DNA from: Haliotis rufescens
Taxonomy: Eukaryota
DNA length: 64,000 nt
Direction: 5' to 3'
Assembly: GCF_023055435.1 (NCBI RefSeq)
Contig: NW_025964201.1
Location: 2,542,001-2,606,000 of the forward strand
The position numbers and the translations under genes were made by a program. Below, piece by piece: positions 12,500-48,600 of the stretch; positions within the stretch are counted from its first letter, which is position 1; the number at the start of each line of letters is the position of its first letter. Below the pieces are notes generated by a model, which saw nothing but the letters and a program-made list of their open reading frames with translations, did not search any database and was not told where the DNA came from.

Positions 12500-12865
12500 T
12501 TGGTAGGTTATTGTATTTTGATGCGTTTTATTAGTTCCGTTTTTATTAAGAATACGCCTAAGGCCTTGAAGTTTTCTAGTTTATTTTGTGGGTTTAGTAT
12601 TGCTTCTAGAGTGAGAGCCTTGTTTAGATTGAGGGTGGTTTGTAATGCGGTTCGATGTGTTAGGTAGTGTGTGCAGTGGATGAGTGCGTGTTCTGGGGTT
12701 TCTGGTTGTTTGCAGTGTGGGCAGTTACCTGTAGTGTGTTTTTTAAAAAAAATGTATGTGGTTATTTAGGTTGGTGTGTCCTGTTTGGAGTTTAGTGATT
12801 ACTCTGTCGATTTTTTTTGATGGATGGATAATTTTTGGTTTGGTTAGTGGTTTGCTGAGCACTTT
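12500..12865 (-). mobile_element. LINE (I/Nimb-like) ORF2 C-terminal fragment
   Basis: Minus strand reads RVITKLQTGHTNLNNH..CPHCKQPETPEHALIHC, a CCHC knuckle preceded by the RLxxGH-type motif. Confidence 0.7.
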
Positions 12866-13044
12866 TTTCATGCTTCATGCATGCTTCAGAACGTGCAGAT
12901 ACATATAGGACAGTTTTGCATTTGTAAAAACATACACACAAGGGACCCCATTCAGTCCGTAACAGTACCAATTACACTCACAGCATGAAAACCAATTGTT
13001 GTTAATCCTAAAGTCTATAGCTATTATTTGGTTAACATACATTA

Positions 13045-13330
13045 AAATCAGATAGAAGTTCTCGCTATCGCCGAGGACATCCCATTACAGGTCACATAGA
13101 ACAATCTTCACAAACTATGACCGACCAATGAAATGACTAACAGGAAGTCGACATTAGACACTAAGAAAGCAGCTTTCTTAAGCTTTGTGGTACCAGTTTC
13201 AAACTGGCGACTTACATTCCAGACTATGCCTTTTAAAGTAATTTGAAGAGGTCGTACAGTACGTAACCGTTGTTTTGTGTTAAGCTTAAGAGATTGCATG
13301 ATTAGAAAACATATTCCGCTGACAATGTAA
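13045..13330. mobile_element. Partial copy of the MITE at 26787-27231
   Basis: Shares AAATCAGAT..AGTTCTCGCTA..GAGGACATCCCATT..GACCGACCAATG..AACTGGCGACT. Confidence 0.65.
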
Positions 13331-13770
13331 CATAACAATATGAATACTCTTTTTTTCATTTTTTTATTACGTGTTTGTATCGTTATCTACCGTGTAGGTG
13401 TCCGAGCTTCTCTCGAGGAACGTTAACACAACTTAAATTCGTGTGTCCGACATACTCGTTAATCCGACATAATCATAAGCAACTAACCATGTCGGATTAA
13501 CGGGACTTGGCTGTATTGTCTTCTAAACTGATAAACCGAATAATAAACGAGTGCAACAAGCAACAAGACTCCAGATGGATGAGTTCACACAAAGATCCTA
13601 CGTAAATGAAATCATCACCGGTATCTCCCAGCACCGGTAGCGACATGGATACAATTGCGTACATAAATGTGTAAATTTCCTTCTATGTAAAACAAGTTAA
13701 TAATATTACTAGGCATCTAAGGAACGCTATCAAACAAGGATTAGAGAAATTGTAAATCTACTATTCTGTT

Positions 13771-14311
13771 AAGTCTTTTGAAGGCATTTAGAAATGATAC
13801 ACTAAAAGGAAGAGAATTTATGGATGTCAACTTCTTTATTATGAGGAACACAATCTGCCTTGTGCTTGGAACTTATTGCTTTGATCTTGTTCGGTGCCTA
13901 TTATCTATCTGGCTTCCATTTGCCCTTTGCTATTTCCATTCGTTCACCTATCAGTGCTAATTACCCCCGGCCTCCCGTTTACCCATTGTCCATTGCCTAT
14001 TGTCTATTACCTATCAATGATAACTTAAGTACTGGCTTCCATACCATCAGCGCTAATTCCTGTAAAGTGTTGGCTTCCATTGTCTATTCCTAATCACCTA
14101 TCAGCGCCAATCATCTGTTGGCTTCCCTTTTTAGCTTCTACCCCTTGTTAGCTTCCATCTTTTGTAATCTTATTGATTTTGTTGTCCTTACATGTACATA
14201 TATATGCTCTCTGCCTCATGGCATTCTCTCACTTGATGAAGGAGTAAGCATGTACTCCGAAACGTTGTGTTCCTCATAATAAAGACGTTGACATCCATAA
14301 ATTCTCTTCCT
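13771..14311 (+). mobile_element. Penelope-like element terminal repeat (pLTR) with inverted tail segment
   Basis: 13806-13853 is the near-perfect reverse complement of 14265-14312; hammerhead-like core and AATAAA at the 3' end; candidate TSD TACTATTCTGTT (13759-13770) / TACTATTCCGTT (14312-14323). Confidence 0.7.
14230..14269 (+). ncRNA. Minimal type I hammerhead ribozyme-like motif (PLE-associated variant)
   Basis: CAC-UUGAUGA-A-GGAGUA-agcaug-UACUCC-GAAA-CGUU-GUG: stem II GGAGUA/UACUCC, stem I CAC/GUG, loopless palindromic stem III. Confidence 0.6.
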
Positions 14312-14574
14312 TACTATTCCGTTCTTCCTTTTACAGGAACATACGTGGGTGGTTCACTCAGTGGAACCGATACCGAAAGAAGTAATAGATGACTGATTTG
14401 AAAGGGCACAATTTAGTCTCCATTTATAAGTACAGCAATTCAAGAAACACACAGAGACCATGGATACATGCATCTGCCCCAGTACTATCAACTTCTGGTT
14501 GGACATCGACTACATCGTCTTGTATAAATACACATCCGTAACGAGGGATGTTCGTGTATTTTGCTGTGTCAGTC

Positions 14575-14730
14575 AATGTACTACAGTGATCTATATGCCG
14601 GTGGCCTGTAAACAATCGAGTCAGGAGAAGACAATCCAATGATCACTATCCACGTCATCGGGTAAGAAAGCCACGATGTCCACCAAGTCACCATCCCTGA
14701 CCACACGATCCAGTGATCTGGAGTAAGGTG
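14575..14730 (-). mobile_element. Family C repeat, diverged
   Basis: ACAATCCAATGATCA..CCAAGTCA..CCTGACCACACGATCC, similar to 27600-27861. Confidence 0.55.
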
Positions 14731-15737
14731 ATGTGATAACCCCACCCGAAGGTAACAGAATAGCATCGCGCATCACGGTGATGATGATTAATCCGACAAA
14801 CCCCCTTTCCTCAGCCACAGGAGTCCTTTGTACGACTGTATCATGCGCATCTGATTGGGAATCGCTTTCAAATAGCGATGACACCAGGTGTTCACGAGAG
14901 AGTTAGCGTATCCTAGCCGTCTGATGGCACCCGTTACAAACCTATGGTAACATGAGAACTATAGCCACCAAAGGTTGGAGCTACAGAACACTGCTCGACA
15001 TTTGAAGTCTTGTCACTGAAAACGGCAACACGTTTCATGTAGGGTGACATCTGACTGGAAAAGAATGGGTTTATTCCAATTCTGTGTCCTTTTTTCTGTT
15101 TGTGCATTCTACCAATAACAACACCACACAGTGAATTAATCCACGCACAAAAACATCAACAGGTTCCTCTTCTCTTTTGTTCCTTTTTTTGCATATGCCT
15201 CCAGAGCATCTGTAATAGTTTTAATTAGAATGTTGTGATCTCAACTGGTAGGTGGCTGCTCACGATATCTTGGTCCAGGCTTGATAGAGACGTCACCGGT
15301 GATTTTTGACCAAACGGTTGATTACGGAATGATGGCAGCCTCAAGTTGTTGAATTTACATCATGAGCTGCCCAGTCCGCGTTCTGCAACGGACTTTCCTG
15401 TAATTGAACACGAATTCAAATTCAAGAACATGCGGTCTTTCTTTGATTTATTGGAGTCAGTTTCTGGTTTGTCAAAACGTGTCAAAACAATATCAAGAAC
15501 TATTCCACCTGGTCGATACTATTGGCCCTTCCTATTTGTGGACCCACCCACCAGCAAAGGTTGCTGGAGTTGTTGGATTTCTTTCAAGGACACAGAATAT
15601 AAGTGACGTGTCATCTTTAGTAAAGGTCCAGCAAGTGGTCAACGTCTGAGACCTGCATAAACTTAATGTCAGAAAAACGTCTTTTAACCTATCCCCCCAT
15701 CGCTGGGTAAAGTGTGGAGATGTGGATGCATTGCTTC

Positions 15738-18700
15738 TCAACATTCTGTGTTACCGCGTATGTACATATGCCCCCCCTCCAGGTGGTCGGAGATGTTGGT
15801 GTAGATGTTGTTGCTGCCATTGGTGTAAGTGTGGCTGCCGGTGTGACTGCCGGTGTGACTGCCGGTGTTACCGCCGTTGTTGCTGTCGGCGCTGCTTACA
15901 GTGTTGTTGCAGATGTTGGTGTCGGAGTCAGGACGCCCATCTGGGTCCGATGACTCGGAGATGTCACATGGTTCCAGTACATGGTCCACCCCGTGATCAT
16001 AGTAGGTATAAGTGGCATCTGTTTCAGCTCCGTTAGTTTTTCTTCTGCGTTTTACTATTTTGCTGAAAGAGAAGACAACATCTTTGAAATGTGACGTATA
16101 TTGGACATATGAATTATAAATATGTCATATAAATAACAACTAAGTTGAAAATATGATATAATGTTCATATGTCGTGCTTTCTACTTGCTGTTATGTCCCT
16201 GTTCCTGGACGAGTACATCACGATATCACTCACCAACAGACTACACTCAGAACAAACACAACAGCACCAACAGCACATGCCACAATCAGTGTCATCTTGG
16301 TCTTCCCTGAAAGATACAGATGCGGATAATTATTACGAAAAGTGGTTTTTCAATCAGACAATTTTCTTCAGATGTGGATCGTCTTTTTTTGGACTCTCCA
16401 TGCTACTGTGCGCACCTTGTGTATGTAGGGGGGCAATGTGTGGGGACGACGTAGTGGGGGGAGGTGATGTCGGTGATGTCGGCCCTGTACCTCCGTTGCA
16501 CGTGACTGTCAGGTTGGACACACCTGGAACATCAATCAGCGGAATCATTGCTTTGTATCTGCTTTTTAAAGGAAAATGAAAAACCCATAAAAATCTGTTT
16601 TCCGAGACACCTGAACGTACCTCTGACCTTCAGCCACACCTGTTGACCTTGCTTCCCATATGTTTGAAACGTCACCGTAAAACGTGAAACATTTTCCATC
16701 ACTGGCGTATTGTATACAAAATATCTGTGTGAGAGAGATTGCCAGATAGAGTTGTCTCCCTTCAGTGTTATGTTAGCTCTGACGCCGTCACGATGTCTGA
16801 AGAACAGTTCTAGTATCGTCACCGTCATTGACGTCCCTGTCACGTCACACTGACACGTGTTATATGAGTTCTGTGATTCGTATGGGTAATTGGAAGATGA
16901 AAGATACAGAGTAGAGTCTTCCGTGGAGGAGGTTGTGGTGCAGCTGCAGATATCTATGGGCGATTCTGTAAATATACAACCCGTCCATTTCAATCAGCGT
17001 ATCTCATGCAAACTAAACCAACGTGTCATGTTATTTGTAATATTTCCAAAAAATAATGGACATTAAATATTGGAATGAAGAGGTTGAAGAGTATTTCAGA
17101 TTTATCACAGCATGTCTGTTTGATGTGAGAGGTGAGGTGAGGTGGGGTGGGGTTTAACGTCGCGTTCAACATTATTTCAGTTTCGACGTGTGTCTGTGTC
17201 TGTGTGGCTGATTTAATAGTGCTACTCCACTGAGATACCACGCAGAAGTCTAACATGGATACTCCACTCAGATGAAGTTTTCTCCAATCCGACATGTATT
17301 TGTTTCATCTCCTTAATGCCGAACACCCACCAAGGTAACAACAAGTATCATCTTTGTTCTGTACCATCAACGTCTTTTGGAATGACACTACTAGCGGATC
17401 GAACCACCGACCTTCTACTCTCCGGACAGACGCTCTAGACTAGTTCACGGAGGAGAGCCTGATGTCGAAAAGAAAATTAACAAGAATATGATCCAGTATC
17501 TCAATAAGTGTAAATCTTACGAAGCAACGATCAACGGATTCTGGAAATACTATGAGACTCAGCACGTACACTCGAGGCGCTTTTAGACCGGGAGGTCGCC
17601 CTTCCCACCCAATAGATATAGGATGGTCATGTATCACTCATATGAAACATTTTATCTTGGTTATTCGTGTATTGATGTTTGAAAACTACCAACCGTTGAT
17701 ACACTGGTATGATAATGTCACCGTATATGACGTCGTATTTCCACACTTGTGAGTCAGCCAGAAGCTCCAGATGTCGTGGTGGCAGACCGACACTCCGACG
17801 CAGTTTGTTGTCAGCCCTTGTTTCTGAGTCTCCTGCAGATATTCACACGTGTCATCTTGTGTGACACATCCTGGTGACGTCTTCCTGTACAGGACGCGGA
17901 CCAGACGGATCCTGCCAGGGTGCCCGCACTCAAGCCTCACAGACCCGCGGGGCAGGTTGCTGCAGACCTCCTTCACCTCGACAGACCCAACTGCAATGTA
18001 AATTGAGATTATTTAGACCTGCTACACCTGGACAGGCCTACCTGCAATCTGAAGTGAGGTTATATAGACCTCCTTCACCTGGACAGATCCACATGCAATG
18101 TGAAGTGAGGTTATATAGAACTCCTTCACCTGGACAGACCCACTTGCAATGTGAAGTGAGGTTATATAGACCGCCTTCACCTGGACAGACCCACTTGCAA
18201 CGTGAAGTGAGGTTATATAGACCGTCTTTACCTGGACAGACCCACCTGCAATGTGAGGTGAGGTTATATAGACATTCTTCACCTGGACAGACCCACCTGC
18301 AATGTGAAGTGAGGTTATATAAACCTCCTTCACCTGGACGGACCCACCTGCAATGTGAAGTGAGGTTATATAGACCTCTTTCACCTGGACAGATCCACAT
18401 GCAATGTGAAGTGAGGTTATATAGACCTCCTTCCCCAAGACCGACCCACCTGCAATGTGAAGTGAGGTTATATAGACCTCCTTAACCTCGACAGACCCAC
18501 CTGCAATGTGAAGTGGGGTTATATAGACCTTCTTCACCTGGACAGATCCAACTGCAATGTGAAGTGAGGTTATATAGACCTCCTTCACCTGGACAGACCC
18601 ACCTGCAATGTGAAGTGAGGTTATATAAACCTCCTTCACCTGGACAGACCCACCTGCAATGTGAAGTGAGGTTATATAGACCTCCTTCACTTGGACACCT

Positions 18701-19387
18701 TAACGCTGTCAGCACGATGCGATGCAACGACATAATTGCACGCGCATATGATACATAAGATTAATTAATACCGTATATGTTACGATTCCAATATAGTGTA
18801 ATGCTAAATTGAAAGAACACATGCAAGCATTTTAATTTCTCAATCAAGAAAGATCAGTATTTTTAAAGAATTAAACGTAATATTGCAAAAAGGCAAATAC
18901 CAGAGTGGAAAACTATGATGGCTAACGTTCAAAACACAAGCCATGTGTGACATACGCCGTAAAATACCATCACTGTGAACATCACGGCTGGTGTTGCACT
19001 CAGCGAATCTTCTACTTGACATTTCAATAATGAGCCATTGTAATACATGAGTATGTACAGAAATGCGTCTACATGAGAAATATGCTGAAACTCATCGTCT
19101 GTGTTGTACAAGTGGCATATTATGTCACTAATCAACACGAGATACATACCGATTCGTAGTGGTCTATATCATAACTTCGAGCTGAATTGAGATAACAGGT
19201 TTGGCACTTTCTCTGTTAAATATCACAACTCGGGGTCACTGAAGACTAATGTCAAATTGTAGTGCCATCCATAAAAGATTCAATGACATCACACAGAAGA
19301 CACCTGTTCGTCAATCTGCAACTCACCTGCCACGAAACATCTGATGTAGCCCAGGATGAACAGAGTCTTCGCCCACAGTAGATGCAT
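15738..19387 (-). CDS. Gene 2: SUEL-lectin-like + CUB-like single-pass receptor (~402 aa; 6 coding exons: 19387-19327, 17990-17694, 16965-16621, 16523-16416, 16306-16234, 16062-15738)
   Basis: In-frame GT-AG joins (phases 1,1,1,1,2; 1209 nt). Signal peptide MHLLWAKTLFILGYIRCFVA, SUEL-like VCSN..LECGHPGRIRLVRVLYRK..VTLSYQC, CUB-like LYLSSSNYP..TCQCDV..VWLKV, P/T-rich stalk, TM MTLIVACAVGAVVFVLSVVCC followed by the basic stop-transfer KIVKRRRK, and tail with YTYY, YTNG, IYTNI. Confidence 0.85.
17129..17437 (-). mobile_element. SINE family B
   Basis: Similar to 988-1316; (CCTCA)n tail. Confidence 0.75.
17965..18698. repeat. 51-bp minisatellite (~14 units) derived from the gene 2 intron 1/exon 2 junction
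   Basis: The minus-strand unit TATATAACCTCACTTCACATTGCAG|GTGGGTCTGTCCAGGTGAAGGAGGTC matches the real acceptor TTTACATTGCAG|TTGGGTCTGTCGAGGTGAAGGAGGTC at 17990. Confidence 0.9.
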
Positions 19388-19623
19388 GTTGACCTGTCCA
19401 GCTGGCGTTTACATGGCAAGTCTGTCCGTACTACAGTGGAGATCTCACTGGGCCGCCCACAGTAGATGCATGTTTCCCTGTCCAGGTGGCGTTTACATGG
19501 CAAGTCTGTCTGTACTACAGAGGAGGTCTCACTGGGCCGCCCACAGTAGATGCATGTTGGGCTGTCCAGCTGACGTTTACATGGCAAGTCTGTCCGTACT
19601 ACAGAGGAGGTCTCACTGGGCCG
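19370..19623. repeat. 84-bp x3 tandem repeat including the gene 2 start codon
   Basis: Units start at 19370, 19454 and 19538; each carries ACATGCATCTACTGTGGGCG on the minus strand. Confidence 0.9.
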
Positions 19624-20449
19624 AGCAGGGTGGATCTCACTGGAGCTGTGACATGAAAGGTGGAAGTATAAAGTCGCCCATAGCGCCGCTGATTCACTTC
19701 TACCCATTTGTTCCCATGATCTGAATAGAGGTGTTTCGTGTGTTGTTAACAGAGAATGCACACACCCCAGTCAATAGGTTGTGATTAGCATAACACAGAA
19801 GTTTCAGTCATACACGGTGATTCTGCCACACCAAGTTTAATATGCACTATACCTTCACATGGGCGGCGAGCCAAGGTCTTGATTCGATTCTCACTCATTA
19901 TGTACACAGCATGTACACCGACGTAGAGAACTCGTCCATCGAATAACTCATAAATCGTTTCTTAATCTTATACGTTTCATCTCCTTGTAAAATAGTATAC
20001 AGTAAGCGTGCTGTGAACCTACCGATACACAACATTTGTGTTGCAGTTGATTTGCAGTCTAAATGCGTTAAGTTATTACAACACAGACACACCAAAGACA
20101 AATAAAGGCGACAAATTCCCACCCATAATCCTTAGAAATTTCTACTAAAAGCAGAGTCAATCGAACGATTCCACCGATTGGCTATTTCAGATTACAGAAT
20201 GATGTCAGATCTTCAATATACCTGAAGCCTAAGTCACACTTGTTTTCAGGATGTCGTACAGTCAGCCCGTGATATTCTATAACCTGGGATTGTATTGAAA
20301 TATAATTTGTTCTGGAAAATAGTAGAAAAAACAATAAAGCTATTAGGTTTTAGCAGATATTTCAGATATGGAAGCCAGTATTAGGATGAGAAGGATTAAG
20401 ATATAAGGACAATGGAAATGATGTCAAACTTGGTTTGTGATTGTTTTAT

Positions 20450-23395: not shown

Positions 23396-24370
23396 CTCAT
23401 TTTATCTAATCCCTCACTCAGCCGTGCCAATTTACACTTGTCAGAGGGGTACATAAAGTACGTGATCTAGACTTCCAGTTATCAGACTTTCATTTTGTGG
23501 AAGCCTCGGTGGCTGAGTGGGTTAGATCGCTGACTTTGTGTGCTGGCGATTAGGTGCCTACTATGGCAGTGTGGGACTCAACCCACATAAGTGCTGGAAT
23601 CTGTACTTTAAGGAGAAAGTGTCATCCCAATACAACTTTTGTTACATGTGACAACTTTCTAAATTACATTGTGTATTCCATATCTCGATGTGTTATTGTT
23701 TCAGAAAATGTGGGAACCTTTTTAGGGTAACACTTCAATGTCCTTTGTATATTCCAATATGGTTGCGACTTTTCATTACGCCCGTGATTGTGTGAATGTG
23801 TGAATGTGTCTGGGTTCTGTAGCAGTTACAGTTATACTTTCATTCATTAATCTGATCCCGTAAAACTTCGTTTCAAATATAATAACACACAAGATCATAA
23901 GTATTTCTAAAATCTAGAATTCAACTTATTCTAGTTCATTTCATTTTATCCACCGAGCTTGGTGTACATATCCAAGTGTCATGACGACATGAAGTCAGTG
24001 TCATGATGGTCACTTGACCGGAAGTAGTATTGAAGGACTGTGACCTTCATCTCAGTTCCGGTAACGTGACATATGCACGTGGTCTTCGTCTCTTGTGTAC
24101 CGGCGCCAAGTGGCTAGTCTGATGAGCCAAGCTGCAGGGTCATGTCAGTCCCCGGAGGAAGGACCGTCCAGCTGCAGACATAAACAGTCGCATCTGACAC
24201 CGCGGAGAACCAGCAGATCGTGCATGGGAGGGTTGTGGTTCTCACGTTTGAGCATCACACATGGACGGTATGCCCTGGGAGGAACGTCTTTATCCATCAT
24301 TTCAGTTGGCTACCGTTTGTCACAGAGTGTGGCACCGCAAGTAGCATCTCTAGTGCCCCGCACGCGGGAA

Positions 24371-28300: not shown

Positions 28301-31300
28301 TGCCATATCAAATCGGCCAAGACTCATTTTTTAAAGGAGAGGCTATCTGAACGACCACTGCATCGAGTGTATGTGCAATTTGTTGAGAAGATCAGCAATC
28401 CTGCAGAGTCCTTTGCTTGGATGAAGTCGTCTGGACTGAAAAGTGAAACAGAAGGCTTTCTGTTTGCTGCTCAGGACCAGTCACTTCCAACTCGAAACCG
28501 TCAATGTGTGATTTTGCATCAAAATATGAATATGAAATGTAGATTATGCAATTAATTTAATGAGACTGTCCAACACATTGTCAGTGGGTGTCCAGCTTTG
28601 GCACAGACAGAATATCTTAAGCGACATGACGGGGTGGCTCGATCATTTTATTACCGTCTTCGCCATGCTTGTGGTTTTGACACAGAGGTCCACCCATGGT
28701 ACGACCCGGAATATGAAGAGGGCATCATGGAAAATGATGAATACAAAATTCTTTGGAATAGGCCCATTGACAGCCTCAGCCTCTGCATTTTTTTTATTTT
28801 AATCTGTAAATAATAATAATAATGAGGAAAGGAAAAGGAATTCATTGATAATGAAACGTCTGTGAATTTGACAATGTTACTTCTTACATCATATGAAAGA
28901 ACGTATCATAATCTAGACAAATGTCCTGGTCTGTGTACAGCAAGGGATAGGAGACCTGGTGGTAAGCAGCCAGTCACACCGTGAAACACACGTACCCGTC
29001 ACACACTCATATGACAGTGTCACGATATATGACGTTGTGGGTCCACACGTGTCAGTCAACCAGAAACTCGAGATTCCCTGCAGGCAGGATGAAGCCCCTT
29101 GGCAGTCAGTCCGCAGCCCTTGTTTCTGAGTCTCCTGCAGGTATTCACACGTGTCGTCCTGTGTGACACATCCTGGTGACGTCTTCCTGTACAGGACGCG
29201 GACCAGGTGGATCCTGCCAGGGTGCCCGCACTGCAGGCTCGTGGACGTCTCGGACTGATTGCTACATACATGCCTGGACAACAGTTCACCTGAAACACGG
29301 TGGAGTCGTTTTGAGTTTGTTTGTTGAGTCCACTAAAATACAAATATGTCTCGGTATCACTGTCTAGGTGTTATACACATATGTGTCTGTATAACTGTCT
29401 TGGTGTTGTCAAACTGATATACGGGGCGGTCGGGTAGCCTAGTGGTTAAAGAGTTCGCTCGAAGACACGGGTTCGATTCCCGACATGGGTACAACGTGTG
29501 AAGCCCCTTTCTTGTGTCCCCCGCCGTGATATTACTGGAATATTGCTAAAAGCGGCGTAAAACCATACTCACTCACTCAAACTGATATGCACTAATGTTA
29601 TAAAGTGTAGTAACATCTATAAAAACATGAGGGTTGAGACACACAGGCAAGACGCCGGCATCCCAATGGCGCTCCCTTTCTTGCTGATCTGTTTCTTAAT
29701 GCTCATGAATCAGAATTTCTGCTCGGATCAAAATCGCAAGGGAATTTGCCCAAGAAGTAACATAAGTGTCGCCGGGTATACATTTAAAACACGTATTTTC
29801 ACATGACTTAGCTCTCTCTGTCCGTTTACGTACTCTTCATCTCTTACTCCTACTCCTGATTGTCTGACCAGCTGTATCTCGTGCACATACCCGGGGTGTG
29901 ATGTGGACACTTTAAATTGTCACTTTTTGTCACGCCACAGCCGAGGGAAGACCTTCTTGCTCCCTCGACTCAACATCAATTCATATTGATGCCATTTATA
30001 TCTTTTACAGATTTGTACCCTTATCTATCTGCTTTCTTTATGGTACGCTAGTTGATAGAAAGGTAACGCGATCGTAGAAACTAAATCATAAATGTAATCA
30101 ATTGTGAATATTCTACTCCATTAAAAGGCATCGCGTTGCACGAGATTACCAATTCACTGTATGCATGTCCTATGTTAATCATGCATATATTATATTTAGG
30201 AGATCAACATACTGTGTTTTCAATGTAGAGCTAGGTTACCTGTAGATTTAACCCCACTAAATTGAATTTGGAACCGAACGCGCAGCGTGAGGCTTCAAAT
30301 GTTAAATTTAGCGCGGTTAAATCTACAGGTAACCTAGCTCTACATTGAAAACACAGTATGTTTATCTCCATTCTACCATGACTAAATAAAACGCGAACTC
30401 TTTGATGTTAGCAAATATACTGAGTGAAGCGGCATTGGTTGAGTTCAGTGTTTTGAGTGGGTTATCGATCTGAATTACGGAATCACCGAACAAAATGTGG
30501 CGCTGTATATACTCAAGCAGTTTGTTTACACCGTAATACTTCACTGGAACATATGACAGGCATTGAAAGCATATAAGCACGGCAACTTGCTAAGCTAACA
30601 TGAGGTGGGCATCCCTTAAGAAAACAAAGCAAGCTTTGCAAGGCTTTCGCTCTACATCGCAAACGATATGACGTCACAGTCGTATATAGAAAAGCGCCAA
30701 AATTCCAAGCTCTCTGTTGTCTCCAAAACGTAAATACATTCAACACGTCCCATTTTAATTCTGGAAACCCAAAAGTCCAGAAACTCTACGGTCTTTACCG
30801 ACTCTCGGTCAAAGGTATTTACAAAATTAAACATGCTGTTTTCATGGGAACATACCAAGGAAGAAAAAAATTAAAAAAAATTGTTAAAAAACTCAATATT
30901 TACACTTTCTCGCCCATGGGCCTGCCCATGGGCGAGAATATGTTCCATTACTCAAAATTCATGTTTTTGTTTGGCAAATACATTAAATGTATTTATTCAA
31001 GTATCATGACACAAAATTTAACTCATTTTAACTTAATTCAACTATTTTATAGCGATATTGAAATATTTCGCCCATGGGCGAGAAATAGGTTTGGCCCATG
31101 GGCGAGAATATGATCCTTTACTTAAAACTCATGTTTTTGTTTCGCAAATACATTAAATGTAGTCATTCAAGTATCATGACACAAAATTTAACTCATTTTA
31201 ACTTAATTCAACTATTTTATAGCAATATTGAAATATTTGGCCCATGGGGGAGAAAAAGGTTTGGCCCATGGGCGAGAATATTTTCCTTTGCTCAACAGTT

Positions 31301-42631: not shown

Positions 42632-45600
42632 TCAGCAAATACTGTTGTTCAACTCGAGGCGTGAAGATGTCTCATATATGTCATTATCAACCATATCAAC
42701 ACTGTCAGCAGCTGTCGGCGTGAGGTTTGGGTCCGTGTCCGCTGTCTGGACATTGTCGTACATGTTGTTGTTTGATCCCGTGTCATACAGGTCATTGTCA
42801 ACCATCTGTACTTTACTGTGTGGTTTGACCACAGACTGGTCAGGGTTTGATCCCGTGTCATACAGGTCATTGTCAACCATCTGTACTTTACTGTGTGGTT
42901 TGACCACAGACTGGGCAGGGTTTGATCCCGTGTCACACAGGTCATTGTCAACCATCTGTACTTTACTGTGTGGTTTGACCACAGACTGGGCAGGGTTTGA
43001 TCCCGTGTCATACAGGTCATTGTCAACCATCTGTACTTTACTGTGTGGTTTGACCACAGACTGGGCAGGGTTTGATCCCGTGTCATACAGGTCATTGTCA
43101 ACCATCTGTACTTTACTGTGTGGTTTGACCACAGACTGGGCAGGGTTTGATCCCGTGCCATACAGGTCATTGTCAACCATCTGTACTTTACTGTGTGGTT
43201 TGACCACAGACTGGACAGGGTTTAATCCCGTGTCATACAGGTCATTGTCAACCATCTGTACTTTACTGTGTGGTTTGACCACAGACTGGGCAGGGTTTGA
43301 TCCCGTGTCATACAGGTCATTGTCAACCATCTGTACTTTACTGTGTGGTTTGACCACAGACTGGGCAGGGTTTGATCCCGTGCCATACAGGTCATTGTCA
43401 ACCATCTGTACTTTACTGTGTGGTTTGACCACAGACTGGGCAGGGTTTGATCCCGTGTCATACAGGTCATTGTCAACCATGTCTACAACACTAAACCCCA
43501 TCAGATCAGATGGAGCATACGCTGCGTCAGGTGGGTTAGAAGGTCGACAGAAGCGTGACTGGCACAACTCAATCGTGTCTGCTGCGCCAGGCATGGTCTC
43601 CGAGTTTCCCAATGTTACCATCATCACACTGCCTATGTCGGATACGTGTTCCTGTTCGTCTGTGGACGGGATGTCGAGATTATTGTAACTGATATCGTCA
43701 CGGCCCGTCTTCATAGAATCTGGTTTGTCATCTCCGTGTGACGTGACAGCTTTGTGCCTGAAACAACATGACGTCATATTTCATACAGCGCAGGCCTTGA
43801 TCAACATCGTTCATCGTATTTGCCATAGCTTGGTACATTTTGGTAAAGATATAATTGATGTACATTTTTGTGTATAGAATTCGTAAATACATTTGTACTT
43901 CGACTAATATGAGTAGGCACGTCGTAGTGCATCTTCTGTACACACTTTAGATGGGAAACACTATCAATTAAGTTATGTATGTTTAGAATATCAATATGAG
44001 ATATGATTTTTTGAAATCCGAGGAACATGCTTGCATGGCTATAAGGATGATGGTGATGGTGATGACAACGACGGCAGCGACGAAGGCGGAGACGACGGTG
44101 ATGAGAGGTGGGGTGTTGTCTGCAAGGGAATATAGGTAGTTGCTCTTTGACTTTCACCTTGATAACGACATTACGATGAACAAGAAAACGAGATGTATTG
44201 ATACGAAGCGTGAAGAACGCGGCGTGTCAGCCTTAGGTGGGAAGAGTGTCGTAGGTTAGAGAAGTTCCCTACTGTGGGGCGTGGGGGGAGGGGCACGGGT
44301 GGCCCAGTCGTCTAATTTGCCGCGATTTGCTGTGCAGAGTTGCGTCCCTTGGGCACGCCAGAAACCTATGATCGTGGGTTTGAATCCCGGGTTCGCCCCG
44401 ATTGTGTTTCTAGGTTTGTCAGTACCATACCCGTGTGTCTGGGTTTCACGTGCATCATCTCGGGCTTTCCTCCCACATTAAGCTGACACGCCGTGATATG
44501 ACTGGAATACTGTTAAAAGCGGCGTTAAACCAACTCACTCACTCCCTACTTTGGTGTGTTCTACTTGCACTGAATCATAATCAGGATGAATGCAAACCAA
44601 CGACCAGTGGATCCGGAGGCGGATGAGTGACAACGTCTGTTCCCTGACGTGGGGTGAGGGGGGAATACAAGCCGTGCCCCCATCGTTATGTCTGTTCCCT
44701 GACGTGGGGTGAGGGGGGAATACAAGTGGTGCCCCCATCGTTATGTCTGTTCCCTGACGTGGGGTGAGGTGGGAATACAAGCCGTGCCCCCATCGTTATG
44801 TCTGCTCCCTGACGTGGGGTGAGGGTGGGAATACAAGTGGTGCCCCCATCGTTATGTCTGTTCCCTGACGTGGGGTGAGGGTGGAAATACAAGCCGTGCC
44901 CCCATCGTTATGTCTGTTCCCTGACGTGGGGTGAGGGTGGGAATACAAGTGGTGCCCCCATCGTTATGTCTGTTCCCTGACGTGGGGTGAGGGTGGGAAT
45001 ACAAGTGGTGCCCCCATCGTTATGTCTGTTCCCTGACGTGGGGTGAGGGTGGGAATACAAGTGGTGCCCCCATCGTTATGTTTGCTCCCTGACGTGGGGT
45101 GAGAGTGGGAATACAAGTGGTGCCCCCATCGTTATGTCTGCTACCTGACGTGGGGTGAGAGTGGGAATACAAGTGGTGCCCCCATCGTTATGTCTGTTCC
45201 CTGACGTGGGGTGAGGGGGGGGGGGGGGGGGATACAAGTGGTGCCCCCATCGTTATGTCTGTTCCCTGACGTGGGGTGAGGGTGGGAATACAAGTGGTGC
45301 CCCCATCGTTATGTCTGTTCCCTGACGTGGGGTGAGGGTGGGAATACAAGTGGTGCCCCCATCGTTATGTCTGTTCCCTGACGTGGGGTGAGGGTGGAAA
45401 TACAAGCCGTGCCCCCATCGTTATGTCTGTTCCCTGACGTGGGGTGAGGGTGGGAATACAAGTGGTGCCCCCATCGTTATGTCTGTTCCCTGACGTGGGG
45501 TGAGGGTGGGAATACAAGTGGTGCCCCCATCGTTATGTCTGTTCCCTGACGTGGGGTGAGGGTGGGAATACAAGTGGTGCCCCCATCGTCATGTCTGTTC

Positions 45601-48600
45601 CCTGACGTGGGGTGAGGGTGGAAATACAAGCCGTGCCCCCATCGTTATGTCTGTTCCCTGACGTGGGGTGAGGGTGGGAATACAAGTGGTGCCCCCATCG
45701 TTATGTCTGTTCCCTGACGTGGGGTGAGGATGGGAATACAAGTGGTGCCCCCATCGTTATGTCTGCTCCCTGACGTGGGGTGAGGGTGAGAATACAAGTG
45801 GTGCCCCCATCGTTATGTCTGTTCCCTGACGTGGGGTGAGGGTGGGAATACAAGTGGTGCCCCCATCGTTATATCTGCTCCCTGACGTGGGGTGAGGGTG
45901 GGAATACAGGTGGTGCCCCCATCGTTATGTCTGTTTCCTGACGTGGGGTGAGGGTGGGAATACAAGTGGTGCCCCCATCGTTATGTCTGCTCCCTGACGT
46001 GGGGTGAGGGTGAGAATACAAGTGGTGCCCCCATCGTTATGTCTGCTCCCTGACGTGGGGTGAGTGTGGGAATACAAGTGGTGCCCCCATCGTTATGTCT
46101 GCTCCCTTACGTGGGGTGAGGGTGAGAATACAAGTGGTGCCCCCATCGTTATGTCTGTTCCCTGACGTGGGGTGAGGGTGGGAATACAAGTGGTGCCCCC
46201 ATCGTTATGTCTGTTCCCTGACGTGGGGTGAGGGTGGGAATACAAGTGGTGCCCCCATCGTTATGTCTGCTCCCTGACGTGGGGTGAGGGTGGGAATTCA
46301 AGTGGTGCCCCCATCGTTATGTCTGCTCCCTGACGTGGGGTGAGGGTGGGAATTCAAGTGGTGCCCCCATCGTTATGTCTGCTACCTGACGTGGGGTGAG
46401 GGTAGAAATACAAGTATCGATGTGACCGTGAAGCCTGCTCCCTGACGTATGTCTGGCTTGGAATACAATTGATGCGCCTACCGTTATCCCTGTCCCCTGA
46501 CGTGGGATGTGGGGTATCTGGGGATGTCAGGCTGGAGTTCAGGGCCGTCCATGTTGATCCTGACGGAACGGTTGTACCCGTAGCTGTAGTCTCGGTGCTG
46601 TAGACATCAGTGGGTTCATGGTTTGTTGCAGAGTCAGTTTTCCCTGTCGATGCTGTCCCACTGTTTGCTGTTACTGATACTGTCTCGGTCGTTGTTGTAC
46701 CACTGTTTGTTGTTACTGATGCTGTTTCGGGCGATGTTGTCCTACTGTTTGCTGTTACTGATGTCGTCTCGGTTGTTGTTGTGCTGCTGTTTACCGTTGC
46801 TGATGGTGATGGTGATGCTGATGATGCCCCACTACTGCTGGATTCAGACGAGGAATCCGTGGATGTCGGTCCGTTTGATTGAGAAGATGGTGCCAGTGTT
46901 GACGTCGTTCCACCTTACAATTACACATTGGTAATAATTTGCCGACAGCTGCTTTATCACAGGTATTTTGATGGTGGAAAGTACTCGTGATTAACCCAAT
47001 GCTAGAGTCTCAGCTCATAATTCTTCGTCGGTCTAAAGGGAAACTGTTAAAATTGATTCGACTTACCTTATATCTACAAAACTAAGATGTACCCGAGACG
47101 GGCCATAATGCCCTCATTGTGTTCTACAGACACTGCACACATCGCCAAACTGAAACATTTCAGGCGAGTACATTGGCCTTCATTGCAGTAAATCATCGCC
47201 AGGGGGTCACATACACGTAGCTCGTCAGGGGATCTTATACATGTAGCTCACATCGTCAGGGTGTCTTATCAATGTAGCTCACATCGTCAGGGTGTCATAT
47301 CAATGTAGCTCACATCGTCAGGGGACATTATATACGTAGCTCACATCTTCAGGGGGTCATATATATGTAGCTCACATCTTCAGGGGTTCATATACATGTA
47401 GCTCACATCGTCAGGGGGTCATATACATGTAGCTCACATCGTCAGGGTGTTATATACATGTAGCTCACATCGTCAGGGGGTCATATACATGTAGCTCACA
47501 TCGTCAGGGTGTTATATACATGTAGCTCACATCGTCAGGGGGTCATATACATGTAGCTCACATCGTCAGGGTGTTATATACATGTAGCTCACATCGTCAG
47601 GGTGTCATATAAATGTAGCTCACATCGTCAGGGTGTTATATACATGTAGCTAACATCGTCAGGGGGTCATATACATGTAGCTCACATCGTCAGGGTGTCA
47701 TATACATGTAGCTCACATCGTCAGGGTGTCATATAAATGTAGCTCATATCATCAGGGGGCCATATACATGTAGCTCACATCGTCAGGGGGTCATATACAT
47801 GTAGCTCACATCGTCAGGGTGTTATATACATGTAGCTCACATCGTCAGGGGGTCATATACATGTAGCTCACATCGTCAGGGTGTCATATACATGTAGCTA
47901 ACATCGTCAGGGGGTCATATACATGTAGCTAACATCGTCAGGGTGTCATATACATGTAGCTAACATCGTCAGGGTGTCATATAAATATAGCTCATATCAT
48001 CAGGGGGCCATATACATGTAGCTCACATCGTCAGGGGGTCATATACATGTAGCTCACATCGTCAGGGTGTTATATACATGTAGCTCACATCGTCAGGGGG
48101 TCATATACATGTAGCTCACATCGTCAGGGTGTCATATACATGTAGCTAACATCGTCAGGGTGTCATATAAATGAAGCTCATATCATCAGGGGGCCATATA
48201 CATGTAGCTCACATCGTCAGGGGGTCATATACATGTAGCTCACATCGTCAGGGTGTTATATACATGTAGCTCACATCGTCAGGGGGTCATATACATGTAG
48301 CTCACATCGTCAGGGTGTCATATACATGTAGCTAACATCGTCAGGGTGCCAAATACATGTAGCTCACATCGTCAGGGGGTCATATACATGTAGCTCACAT
48401 CGTCAGGGGGTCATATACATGTAGCTCACATCGTCAGGGTGTTATATACATGTAGCTCACATCGTCAGGGTGTTATATACATGTAGCTCACATCGTCAGG
48501 GGGTCATATACATGTAGCTCACATCGTCAGGGTGTTATATACATGTAGCTCACATCGTCAGTGGGTCATATTTATATAGCTCACATCGTCAGGGTGTCAT

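What the first reader, a model, noticed from the sequence alone, without database searches (positions are those of the whole stretch)
17965..18698. Minisatellite made of ~13 extra copies of the gene 2 splice acceptor; only the last is productive
Each 51-bp unit holds a pyrimidine tract, TTGCAG (a few units have TTGCAT or TTGCAA) and the first 26 nt of exon 2, in the exon frame. In-frame TAG (18024-18022) and TAA (18015-18013) lie just before the true acceptor, so use of any upstream copy gives a truncated 17-aa-repeat peptide or NMD. Copy number could tune expression; alleles lacking the stops would gain N-terminal repeats (inference).
Basis: partly seen in the sequence, partly recalled or inferred. 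Interest (0 to 1): 0.7.

Follow-up and report, generated by a model that had tools for sequence, protein, structure and literature searches.

The report
Abalone splice-acceptor "mirage" minisatellite
An abalone cell-surface protein gene carries 13 extra head-to-tail copies of the boundary between its first intron and second exon; the assembled transcripts seen use only the last, original copy, so this is likely a tolerated repeat of a kind known from lancelets and humans, though a predicted RNA hairpin may help hide the extra copies.

Summary
A 51-bp x 14.4 array (17964-18697) repeats the last 25 nt of intron 1 and the first 26 nt of exon 2 of an abalone membrane-protein gene (weak SUEL-lectin match). 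Nine of 13 extra copies keep AG; both in-frame stops are present. Contigs from 3 of 3 probable RNA runs laid on exon 2 (three studies) join 19327 to 17990, and none covers the copies' intron halves, though contigs cannot exclude rare isoforms. The array evolves neutrally as protein (pN/pS 0.96; 2 stops against 1.7 expected). Another sample keeps both stops and carries frameshifted units, so N-terminal repeat gain is unsupported. About 35% of the sampled DNA is minisatellite, and three arrays nearby sit on likely splice donors. This is a new member of the amphioxus 'mirage' kind (compare CBS 844ins68, F7 IVS7); the scan has found it before in this genome and in several others. One twist: each unit is self-complementary, and a predicted 11-12 bp hairpin covers each copy's pyrimidine tract but is broken at the real acceptor (post hoc p about 0.03; a second test was not significant). 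Copy-number tuning of expression is untested and unsupported.

The parts
17964..18697 (-). 51-bp minisatellite spanning the intron 1/exon 2 boundary: 13 extra acceptor-like copies plus the authentic junction as the last unit
17991..18015 (-). Authentic acceptor (intron half of the last unit); 4 changes from the array consensus, all towards A/T; highest PWM score (10.1 against 7.4-8.5 for the AG-intact copies)
17694..17990 (-). Exon 2 (297 nt, phase 1-1), cysteine-rich domain with a weak SUEL-lectin match below Pfam's cut-off
   Evidence: both ends shown by contigs; Pfam E 0.01, 16.6 bits against cut-off 31.4
18022..18024 (-). In-frame TAG in copy 1
   Evidence: also present in DNA run X13
18013..18015 (-). 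In-frame TAA in the last unit's intron half
   Evidence: no difference listed there for the X13 contig that spans it
18610..18639 (-). Example of the predicted hairpin between one unit's exon half and the next unit's pyrimidine tract (-16.7 kcal/mol; the same register at the authentic site gives -1.5)
19327..19387 (-). Coding part of exon 1 (20-aa signal-peptide-like stretch); donor GT at 19326-19325; intron 1 is 1336 nt
   Evidence: matches the N-terminus of P0001
19370..19623 (-). 84-bp x 3 repeat that triplicates the start codon (two upstream 8-codon ORFs)
   Evidence: RNA-type contigs go back 84 nt
16621..16965 (-). Exon 3 (second extracellular domain)
   Evidence: start shown by contig loose ends; end from the GT position and P0001
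16416..16523 (-). Exon 4 (Ser/Thr/Pro-rich stalk), by homology
16234..16306 (-). Exon 5 (hydrophobic, likely transmembrane segment), by homology
15738..16062 (-). Exon 6 coding part (likely cytoplasmic tail with Tyr motifs, to the stop codon), by homology

Best explanation
The array is a locally born 'mirage' minisatellite: a 51-bp piece spanning the intron 1/exon 2 boundary is repeated into the intron, the assembled transcripts use only the last, original acceptor, and the 13 extra copies are likely silent passengers spliced out with intron 1. Inferred steps: (1) a slippage or unequal-exchange duplication across the junction, possibly seeded by the unit's inverted repeat; (2) expansion tolerated only on the intron side, because only the last copy has the intact exon body behind it; (3) the last copy wins mainly by exon definition with the donor 297 nt downstream, helped by a slightly stronger T-rich acceptor and possibly by hairpins over the copies' tracts; (4) rare mis-splicing would end at the TAG and probably be degraded, with the stops being ordinary neutral decay.
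For: Shown: junction 19327 to 17990 in contigs of X1, X5 and X6 (3 of 3 RNA-type runs, three studies); X2 has the same kind of contig, running 125 letters past the 26-nt piece. No RNA-type contig lies on a copy's intron half. The four nearest of 7 paralogous exons and the duplicated scaffold copies have an acceptor at or within a codon of the same place, and 0 of 7 have an array on it. pN/pS 0.96 and 2 stops against 1.7 expected. Edge unit 16% from the copies against 9.5% among copies, the boundary exclusion described for BflGb6 (PMC3087553, passages). The consensus unit reads like the H. rubra orthologue's exon start (G-G-S-V-Q-V-K-E-V), while the window and H. cracherodii start with V, so the unit derives from the exon and is probably old. 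35.5% of 234 kb sampled is minisatellite, and three more arrays in the cluster straddle likely donors.
Against: Contigs drop rare forms, and NMD would deplete them further. 'RNA' is the tool's guess for these runs, although the joints have GT..AG ends. The RNA runs carry organism labels A, B and C, and the array is shown only in the window and in DNA run X13 (label E), so it is not shown that the RNA donors carry it. Post hoc hints of non-neutrality: 6 distinct variants in the intron half against 20 in the exon half (p about 0.01; 0 of 14 control arrays reach this at any phase, with less power); 2 of those 6 hit the G of AG; the hairpin is broken at the real site (p 0.03). The copies score like real acceptors (median real site 7.9), so something must disfavour them.
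Confidence: 0.72

Rival explanations
1. Self-silencing mirage: the array persists because each copy's pyrimidine tract is predicted to be masked by a hairpin with the preceding unit's exon half, and selection broke that hairpin at the real acceptor. Structure, not only position, would choose the last copy.
For: Hairpin -16.7 kcal/mol, 0 of 200 shuffles as good (segment chosen after seeing it), against -1.5 at the real site. The real site is the weakest of the 10 AG-intact sites in this register (others -4.6 to -16.7). 3.1% of 5000 same-number random mutations weaken it as much. The unit is the 2nd most self-complementary of 45 arrays (z -2.7). Intron half more conserved than exon half.
Against: Ensemble accessibility of the tract at the real site (0.22-0.37) overlaps several copies, and 27% of 1500 simulations open it as much. 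The real tract can still pair with its own exon (-12.6). The exon-side arm is the most variable part of the copies (10 of 20 variants). Edge units diverge anyway. Folding was at 37 C for a cold-water animal. All tests were post hoc.
Confidence: 0.14
2. One reading: upstream copies are used at a real rate, the products are destroyed by NMD or give a short secreted 17-aa-repeat peptide, and copy number sets the expression level.
For: 9 copies have intact AG and PWM scores near the median of 30 real acceptors. Every copy reads into the TAG, about 330 nt upstream of the next junction. NMD would hide the products from contigs.
Against: No contig of the RNA-type runs lies on the copies' intron halves. 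The stops are no more than chance gives. Known mirages and CBS 844ins68 give normal mRNA (passages).
Confidence: 0.07
3. Recursive-splicing salvage: a copy chosen by mistake regenerates a donor (AG|GT) and is re-spliced to the real acceptor, so the mature mRNA is identical.
For: 8 of 9 AG-intact copies are followed by GT, 7 of them with 7 Watson-Crick plus 2 wobble matches to a recalled U1 consensus, while the real site reads AG|TT.
Against: GT is the ancestral exon start (H. rubra and H. asinina orthologues start with G; 8 of 30 ordinary acceptors nearby are followed by GT). The intron is only 1.3 kb, whereas recursive sites are recalled from very long introns. T-start units occur in the array (copy 11; variants in X13).
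Confidence: 0.05
4. Coding reservoir: the 51-bp (17-codon) units are kept in frame to supply N-terminal repeats in some alleles.
For: The period is a multiple of 3 and 209 codons are open.
Against: One period in three is a multiple of 3 by chance. pN/pS 0.96. One-base indel units and both stops in X13. 0 of 4 homologues carry repeats.
Confidence: 0.02

Closest known systems
Amphioxus 'mirage' minisatellites, above all globin BflGb6 (also Adh3, troponin C, PGBD5); PMC3087553 and PMC3902484, passages read
   Same: Tandem copies of an intron's 3' end plus the start of exon 2; many but not all keep AG; normal splicing reported; boundary units excluded from homogenisation.
   Different: Mollusc; 51-bp unit and 13 extra copies against 150-160 bp and 3-6 copies in BflGb6; length polymorphism not measured here; self-complementary unit ('hairpin' has 0 occurrences in PMC3087553).
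Human CBS 844ins68 (PMC2630376 and PMC1802585, passages read; Romano 2002 not seen)
   Same: Duplicated intron/exon junction; the distal 3' splice site is used and the mRNA is normal.
   Different: One extra copy of 68 bp; G-runs between the sites are reported to favour the distal site. Here a GGG follows the real site as well as most copies, and its role was not tested.
Human F7 IVS7 37-bp VNTR (PMC1557585, abstract and Discussion read)
   Same: Minisatellite spanning an exon boundary; 5-9 functional but unused pseudo-sites; only the site next to the unique exon is used.
   Different: Donor side rather than acceptor side; the authors found no structure-based explanation there.
Recursive splice sites (AG|GT ratchet points; recalled, no paper read)
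   Same: Acceptor directly followed by a donor-like GT motif in 8 of 9 intact copies.
   Different: Short intron, ancestral GT, no intermediates shown.

Membership tests
Mirage minisatellite (PMC3087553) | Head-to-tail duplication spanning an exon-intron boundary | tested here: met
   25 nt intron plus 26 nt exon per unit; boundary shown by contigs
Mirage minisatellite (PMC3087553) | Many but not all units keep the splice signal | tested here: met
   9 of 13 keep AG
Mirage minisatellite (PMC3087553) | Regular mRNA is spliced at the authentic site | tested here: met
   3 of 3 RNA-type runs; main form only, rare forms cannot be excluded, and the array is not shown in those animals
Mirage minisatellite (PMC3087553) | Concerted evolution with the boundary units left out | tested here: met
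   Edge unit 16% from the copies against 9.5% among copies; copy 1 and the partial 14th unit are also diverged
Mirage minisatellite (PMC3087553) | Length instability between haplotypes or in the soma | tested here: inconclusive
   X13 has another upstream edge and indel units; copy number cannot be read from contigs
Recursive splice site (recalled features) | AG followed at once by a strong donor motif | tested here: met
   8 of 9 intact copies; 7 with 7+2 U1 matches
Recursive splice site (recalled features) | Lies in a very long intron | tested here: not met
   Intron 1 is 1336 nt (19326-17991)
Recursive splice site (recalled features) | Splicing intermediates or lariats at the site | not testable with these tools
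   Only contigs were laid
Regulated unproductive splicing (AS-NMD) | Measurable use of the stop-bearing isoform | tested here: inconclusive
   None seen in contigs, which drop rare forms
Regulated unproductive splicing (AS-NMD) | Response to NMD block, condition or allele length | not testable with these tools
   No such data could be reached
Coding VNTR | Purifying selection on frame and peptide | tested here: not met
   pN/pS 0.96, 2 stops, indel units in X13
SUEL lectin domain (PF02140) | Score at or above Pfam's cut-off | tested here: not met
   16.6 bits (paralog 21.2) against 31.4; SUEL-like at most

The most novel reading that the evidence does not exclude
A self-silencing mirage: the duplication itself builds a hairpin over every extra acceptor's pyrimidine tract, selection opened it only at the real acceptor, and any copy still chosen is erased by re-splicing at its AG|GT. 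That would give a general rule for which junction-spanning repeats can expand, and a natural ladder for testing structure against position in 3' splice-site choice.
Probability: 0.15. Interest if true: 0.55.

Novelty: new member of a known kind. Interest (0 to 1): 0.22.

Why it matters
As it stands it extends a described repeat type to an abalone acceptor and shows how often repeats engulf gene landmarks in this genome. It is also a warning for annotation: true-junction reads land on a copy with one mismatch. If the hairpin reading holds, the locus is a ready-made test of how the spliceosome ignores nine intact decoy acceptors, which the mirage passages read here leave unexplained.

Tried and rejected
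No run was on record as RNA; 'RNA' is a guess for X1, X2, X5 and X6. Lack of contig cover on the copies is not proof of absence. Array length in X13 could not be read from summed contig depth. A dispersed or mobile origin of the unit was rejected. Accessibility simulation: not significant (p 0.27). The 311-nt fold had z -1.9 only. The clustering of dead AGs in copies 2-4 was not counted as evidence, because neighbours share mutations. The G-run mechanism of CBS does not separate the copies from the real site. H. rubra isoforms X1 and X2 differ in exon 1, not at this acceptor. Pfam gave nothing above cut-off for exons 2 and 3. PMC10078293 (12 of 19 passages shown) had nothing on multiplied acceptors. 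Paper searches for Haliotis + minisatellite + intron, recursive splicing + repeats and mirages + hairpin listed no paper on this locus or on hairpin masking in mirages; the library lacks most subscription papers, and the BflGb6 alignment supplement was not opened. No structure prediction or complex job was run, as the question concerns splicing.

Full report
Observation. Tandem Repeats Finder reports an array at 17964-18697 with period 51, 14.4 copies and 90% matches. On the minus strand each unit is the last 25 nt of an intron and the first 26 nt of an exon. There are 13 extra copies with exon starts at 18041 to 18653: 9 keep TTGCAG, 2 read TTGCAT and 2 TTGCAA. Joined in silico to exon 1, every copy reads in the exon frame up to TAG 18024-18022, followed by TAA 18015-18013. 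A genome search with the array found 5 matches, all within it, so it arose here.

The gene. Exon 1 codes a 20-residue signal-peptide-like stretch from ATG 19387; five more exons give two extracellular domains, a Ser/Thr/Pro stalk, a hydrophobic segment and a tyrosine-bearing tail. The four homologues found are uncharacterised Haliotis proteins of 386-402 aa; P0001 (H. cracherodii) is 97% identical over exon 2. The neighbouring paralog's cluster has an H. rufescens member, so the window is abalone, probably red abalone. Exon 2 matches PF02140 (SUEL lectin) only below the cut-off. Seven paralogous exons lie in this cluster and on a small scaffold; none has an array on its acceptor, which falls at or within about a codon of the same place.

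Which acceptor is used. No run was on record as RNA; I laid 5 of the 24 listed. In X1, X5 and X6 (three studies, organism labels A, B, C) a contig runs through exon 2 to 17994 and continues as exon 1. In one search, which lacked exon 2, the same X1 and X5 contigs, and one from X2, were laid from 19327 onto copy 12 with one mismatch and ran off the edge. This shows how easily true-junction reads are misplaced. No contig of these runs covered a copy's intron half in either call, although X1 did hold an unspliced intron 2 contig. Limits: contigs drop rare forms, NMD would deplete them, and the array is shown only in the window and in DNA run X13 (label E). X13 differs from the window by about 2.7% in the intron pieces listed (34 of 1247 letters), well under the 9.5% among copies. 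The array is therefore probably older than that split and probably shared by the RNA donors (inference).

Is the array under coding constraint? No. Against the consensus there are 38 substitutions, pN/pS is 0.96, and 2 stops stand against 1.7 expected. An X13 contig spans 17970-18079 at about flank depth with no difference listed at either stop (the T of the TAG is seen directly). X13 also has one-base indel units and another upstream edge. None of the 4 homologues carries the 17-aa repeat. The consensus unit reads G-G-S-V-Q-V-K-E-V, as the H. rubra orthologue's exon 2 begins, while the window and H. cracherodii begin with V. The copies likely preserve the older exon start.

Base rate. Minisatellites cover 35.5% of 234 kb sampled on this contig, one array per 3.5 kb (164 kb of it surround the window and 7 spaced samples ranged from 0 to 92%). 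Within the cluster, a 32-bp x 7 array multiplies a paralog's likely exon 1 donor, a 52-bp x about 80 array multiplies another of its likely donors, and a 56-bp x 32 array starts at a likely donor near 46385 (from sequence and homology, no RNA). An 84-bp x 3 repeat triplicates this gene's own start codon. Of 31 acceptors located, only this one has an array; donors were not counted. Earlier notes of the scan list a donor array in the same genome and acceptor arrays in shark, annelid and sea urchin genomes (unchecked leads).

How it likely works. Shown: the unit derives from the junction, and the main transcript uses the last copy. Inferred: a duplication across the junction expanded on the intron side, where it is tolerated because the last copy keeps the whole exon behind it. 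The copies look competent: on a small PWM from 30 nearby acceptors, intact copies score 7.4-8.5, the median real site 7.9 and the authentic site 10.1. Exon definition with the donor 297 nt away, plus that small edge, is the simplest selector. This step rests on established splicing knowledge and was not tested.

The twist. The unit is self-complementary, second of 45 arrays (z -2.7). One unit's purine-rich exon half is predicted to pair with the next unit's pyrimidine tract: -16.7 kcal/mol in copy 12 against -1.5 at the authentic site, the weakest of the 10 AG-intact sites. Random changes of the same number weaken it as much in 3.1% of 5000 trials. Against this, ensemble accessibility does not single out the real site (27% of 1500 trials), the real tract can still pair with its own exon (-12.6), and the exon-side arm is the most variable part of the copies. 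The intron half has 6 distinct variants and the exon half 20 (p about 0.01), which the G-richness of the exon half may partly explain. All these tests were made after seeing the pattern. Also, 8 of 9 intact copies read AG|GT while the real site reads AG|TT; GT is ancestral and common here (8 of 30), so recursive splicing stays a remote option.

Comparison with what is known. Amphioxus 'mirages' are tandem duplications of exon-intron boundaries; BflGb6 repeats an intron's 3' end with the start of exon 2, many but not all units keep AG, splicing is reported normal, and boundary units escape homogenisation (PMC3087553, passages; PMC3902484, passage). The name came from earlier scan notes and I checked it in these papers. 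CBS 844ins68 duplicates a 3' splice site and the distal one is used (passages). F7 IVS7 is the donor-side case (abstract and Discussion). Four of five mirage features are met here; length instability is inconclusive. Searches listed nothing on this locus or on hairpin masking in mirages, in a library that lacks most subscription papers.

Verdict. Real, accurately described, and a new member of a known kind. The regulatory and coding readings have no support in the data reached. The hairpin is a modest, testable lead. Interest 0.22; novel reading about 15% likely.

Noticed in passing
window 19370-19623 (-): An 84-bp x 3 repeat triplicates this gene's start codon, giving two upstream 8-codon ORFs; RNA-type contigs show at least two units in the transcript. 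An ATG at 19707 also opens a long frame through the repeat, out of phase with exon 2.
   Followed up: partly
L003 2838-3068 (G000:C423 about 2538600-2538830); same in L005 and L006: A 32-bp x 7 array multiplies the likely exon 1 donor of a paralog.
   Followed up: partly
L019-L020 (G000:C423 about 2529790-2534000): A 52-bp x about 80 array multiplies a consensus-like donor at the end of a Ser/Thr-rich exon of the same paralog; the next paralog ends this exon at a similar place without an array.
   Followed up: partly
window 44635-46415 (-): A 56-bp x 32 array starts at a likely donor (about 46385) of a mucin-like exon; most copies lack the GT.
   Followed up: partly
window 42770-43480 (-): A 75-bp x 9.5 array at 98% match appears to be coding, repeating a tyrosine motif in the tail of a membrane-protein gene.
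   Followed up: no
L018-L019 (G000:C423 about 2522490-2526500): A 70-bp x 58 array begins inside the last exon of a paralog and seems to supply its stop codon.
   Followed up: no
window 17820-17930 and 29120-29230 (-): The middle of exon 2 is nearly identical in DNA to the neighbouring paralog while both ends differ, which suggests gene conversion.
   Followed up: no
window 17979 and 17990; copies 10 and 11: The two bases that set the window's exon start apart from the array consensus each recur in one copy, a hint of exchange between array and coding exon.
   Followed up: partly
window 24009-24179 (-): A fragment like exon 3 with an in-frame stop lies between the two paralogs, probably a pseudo-exon.
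   Followed up: no
G000:C281 (L005, L006): A small scaffold holds two identical copies of a paralog's exon 2 region about 3.1 kb apart; a recent duplication or an assembly artefact.
   Followed up: no
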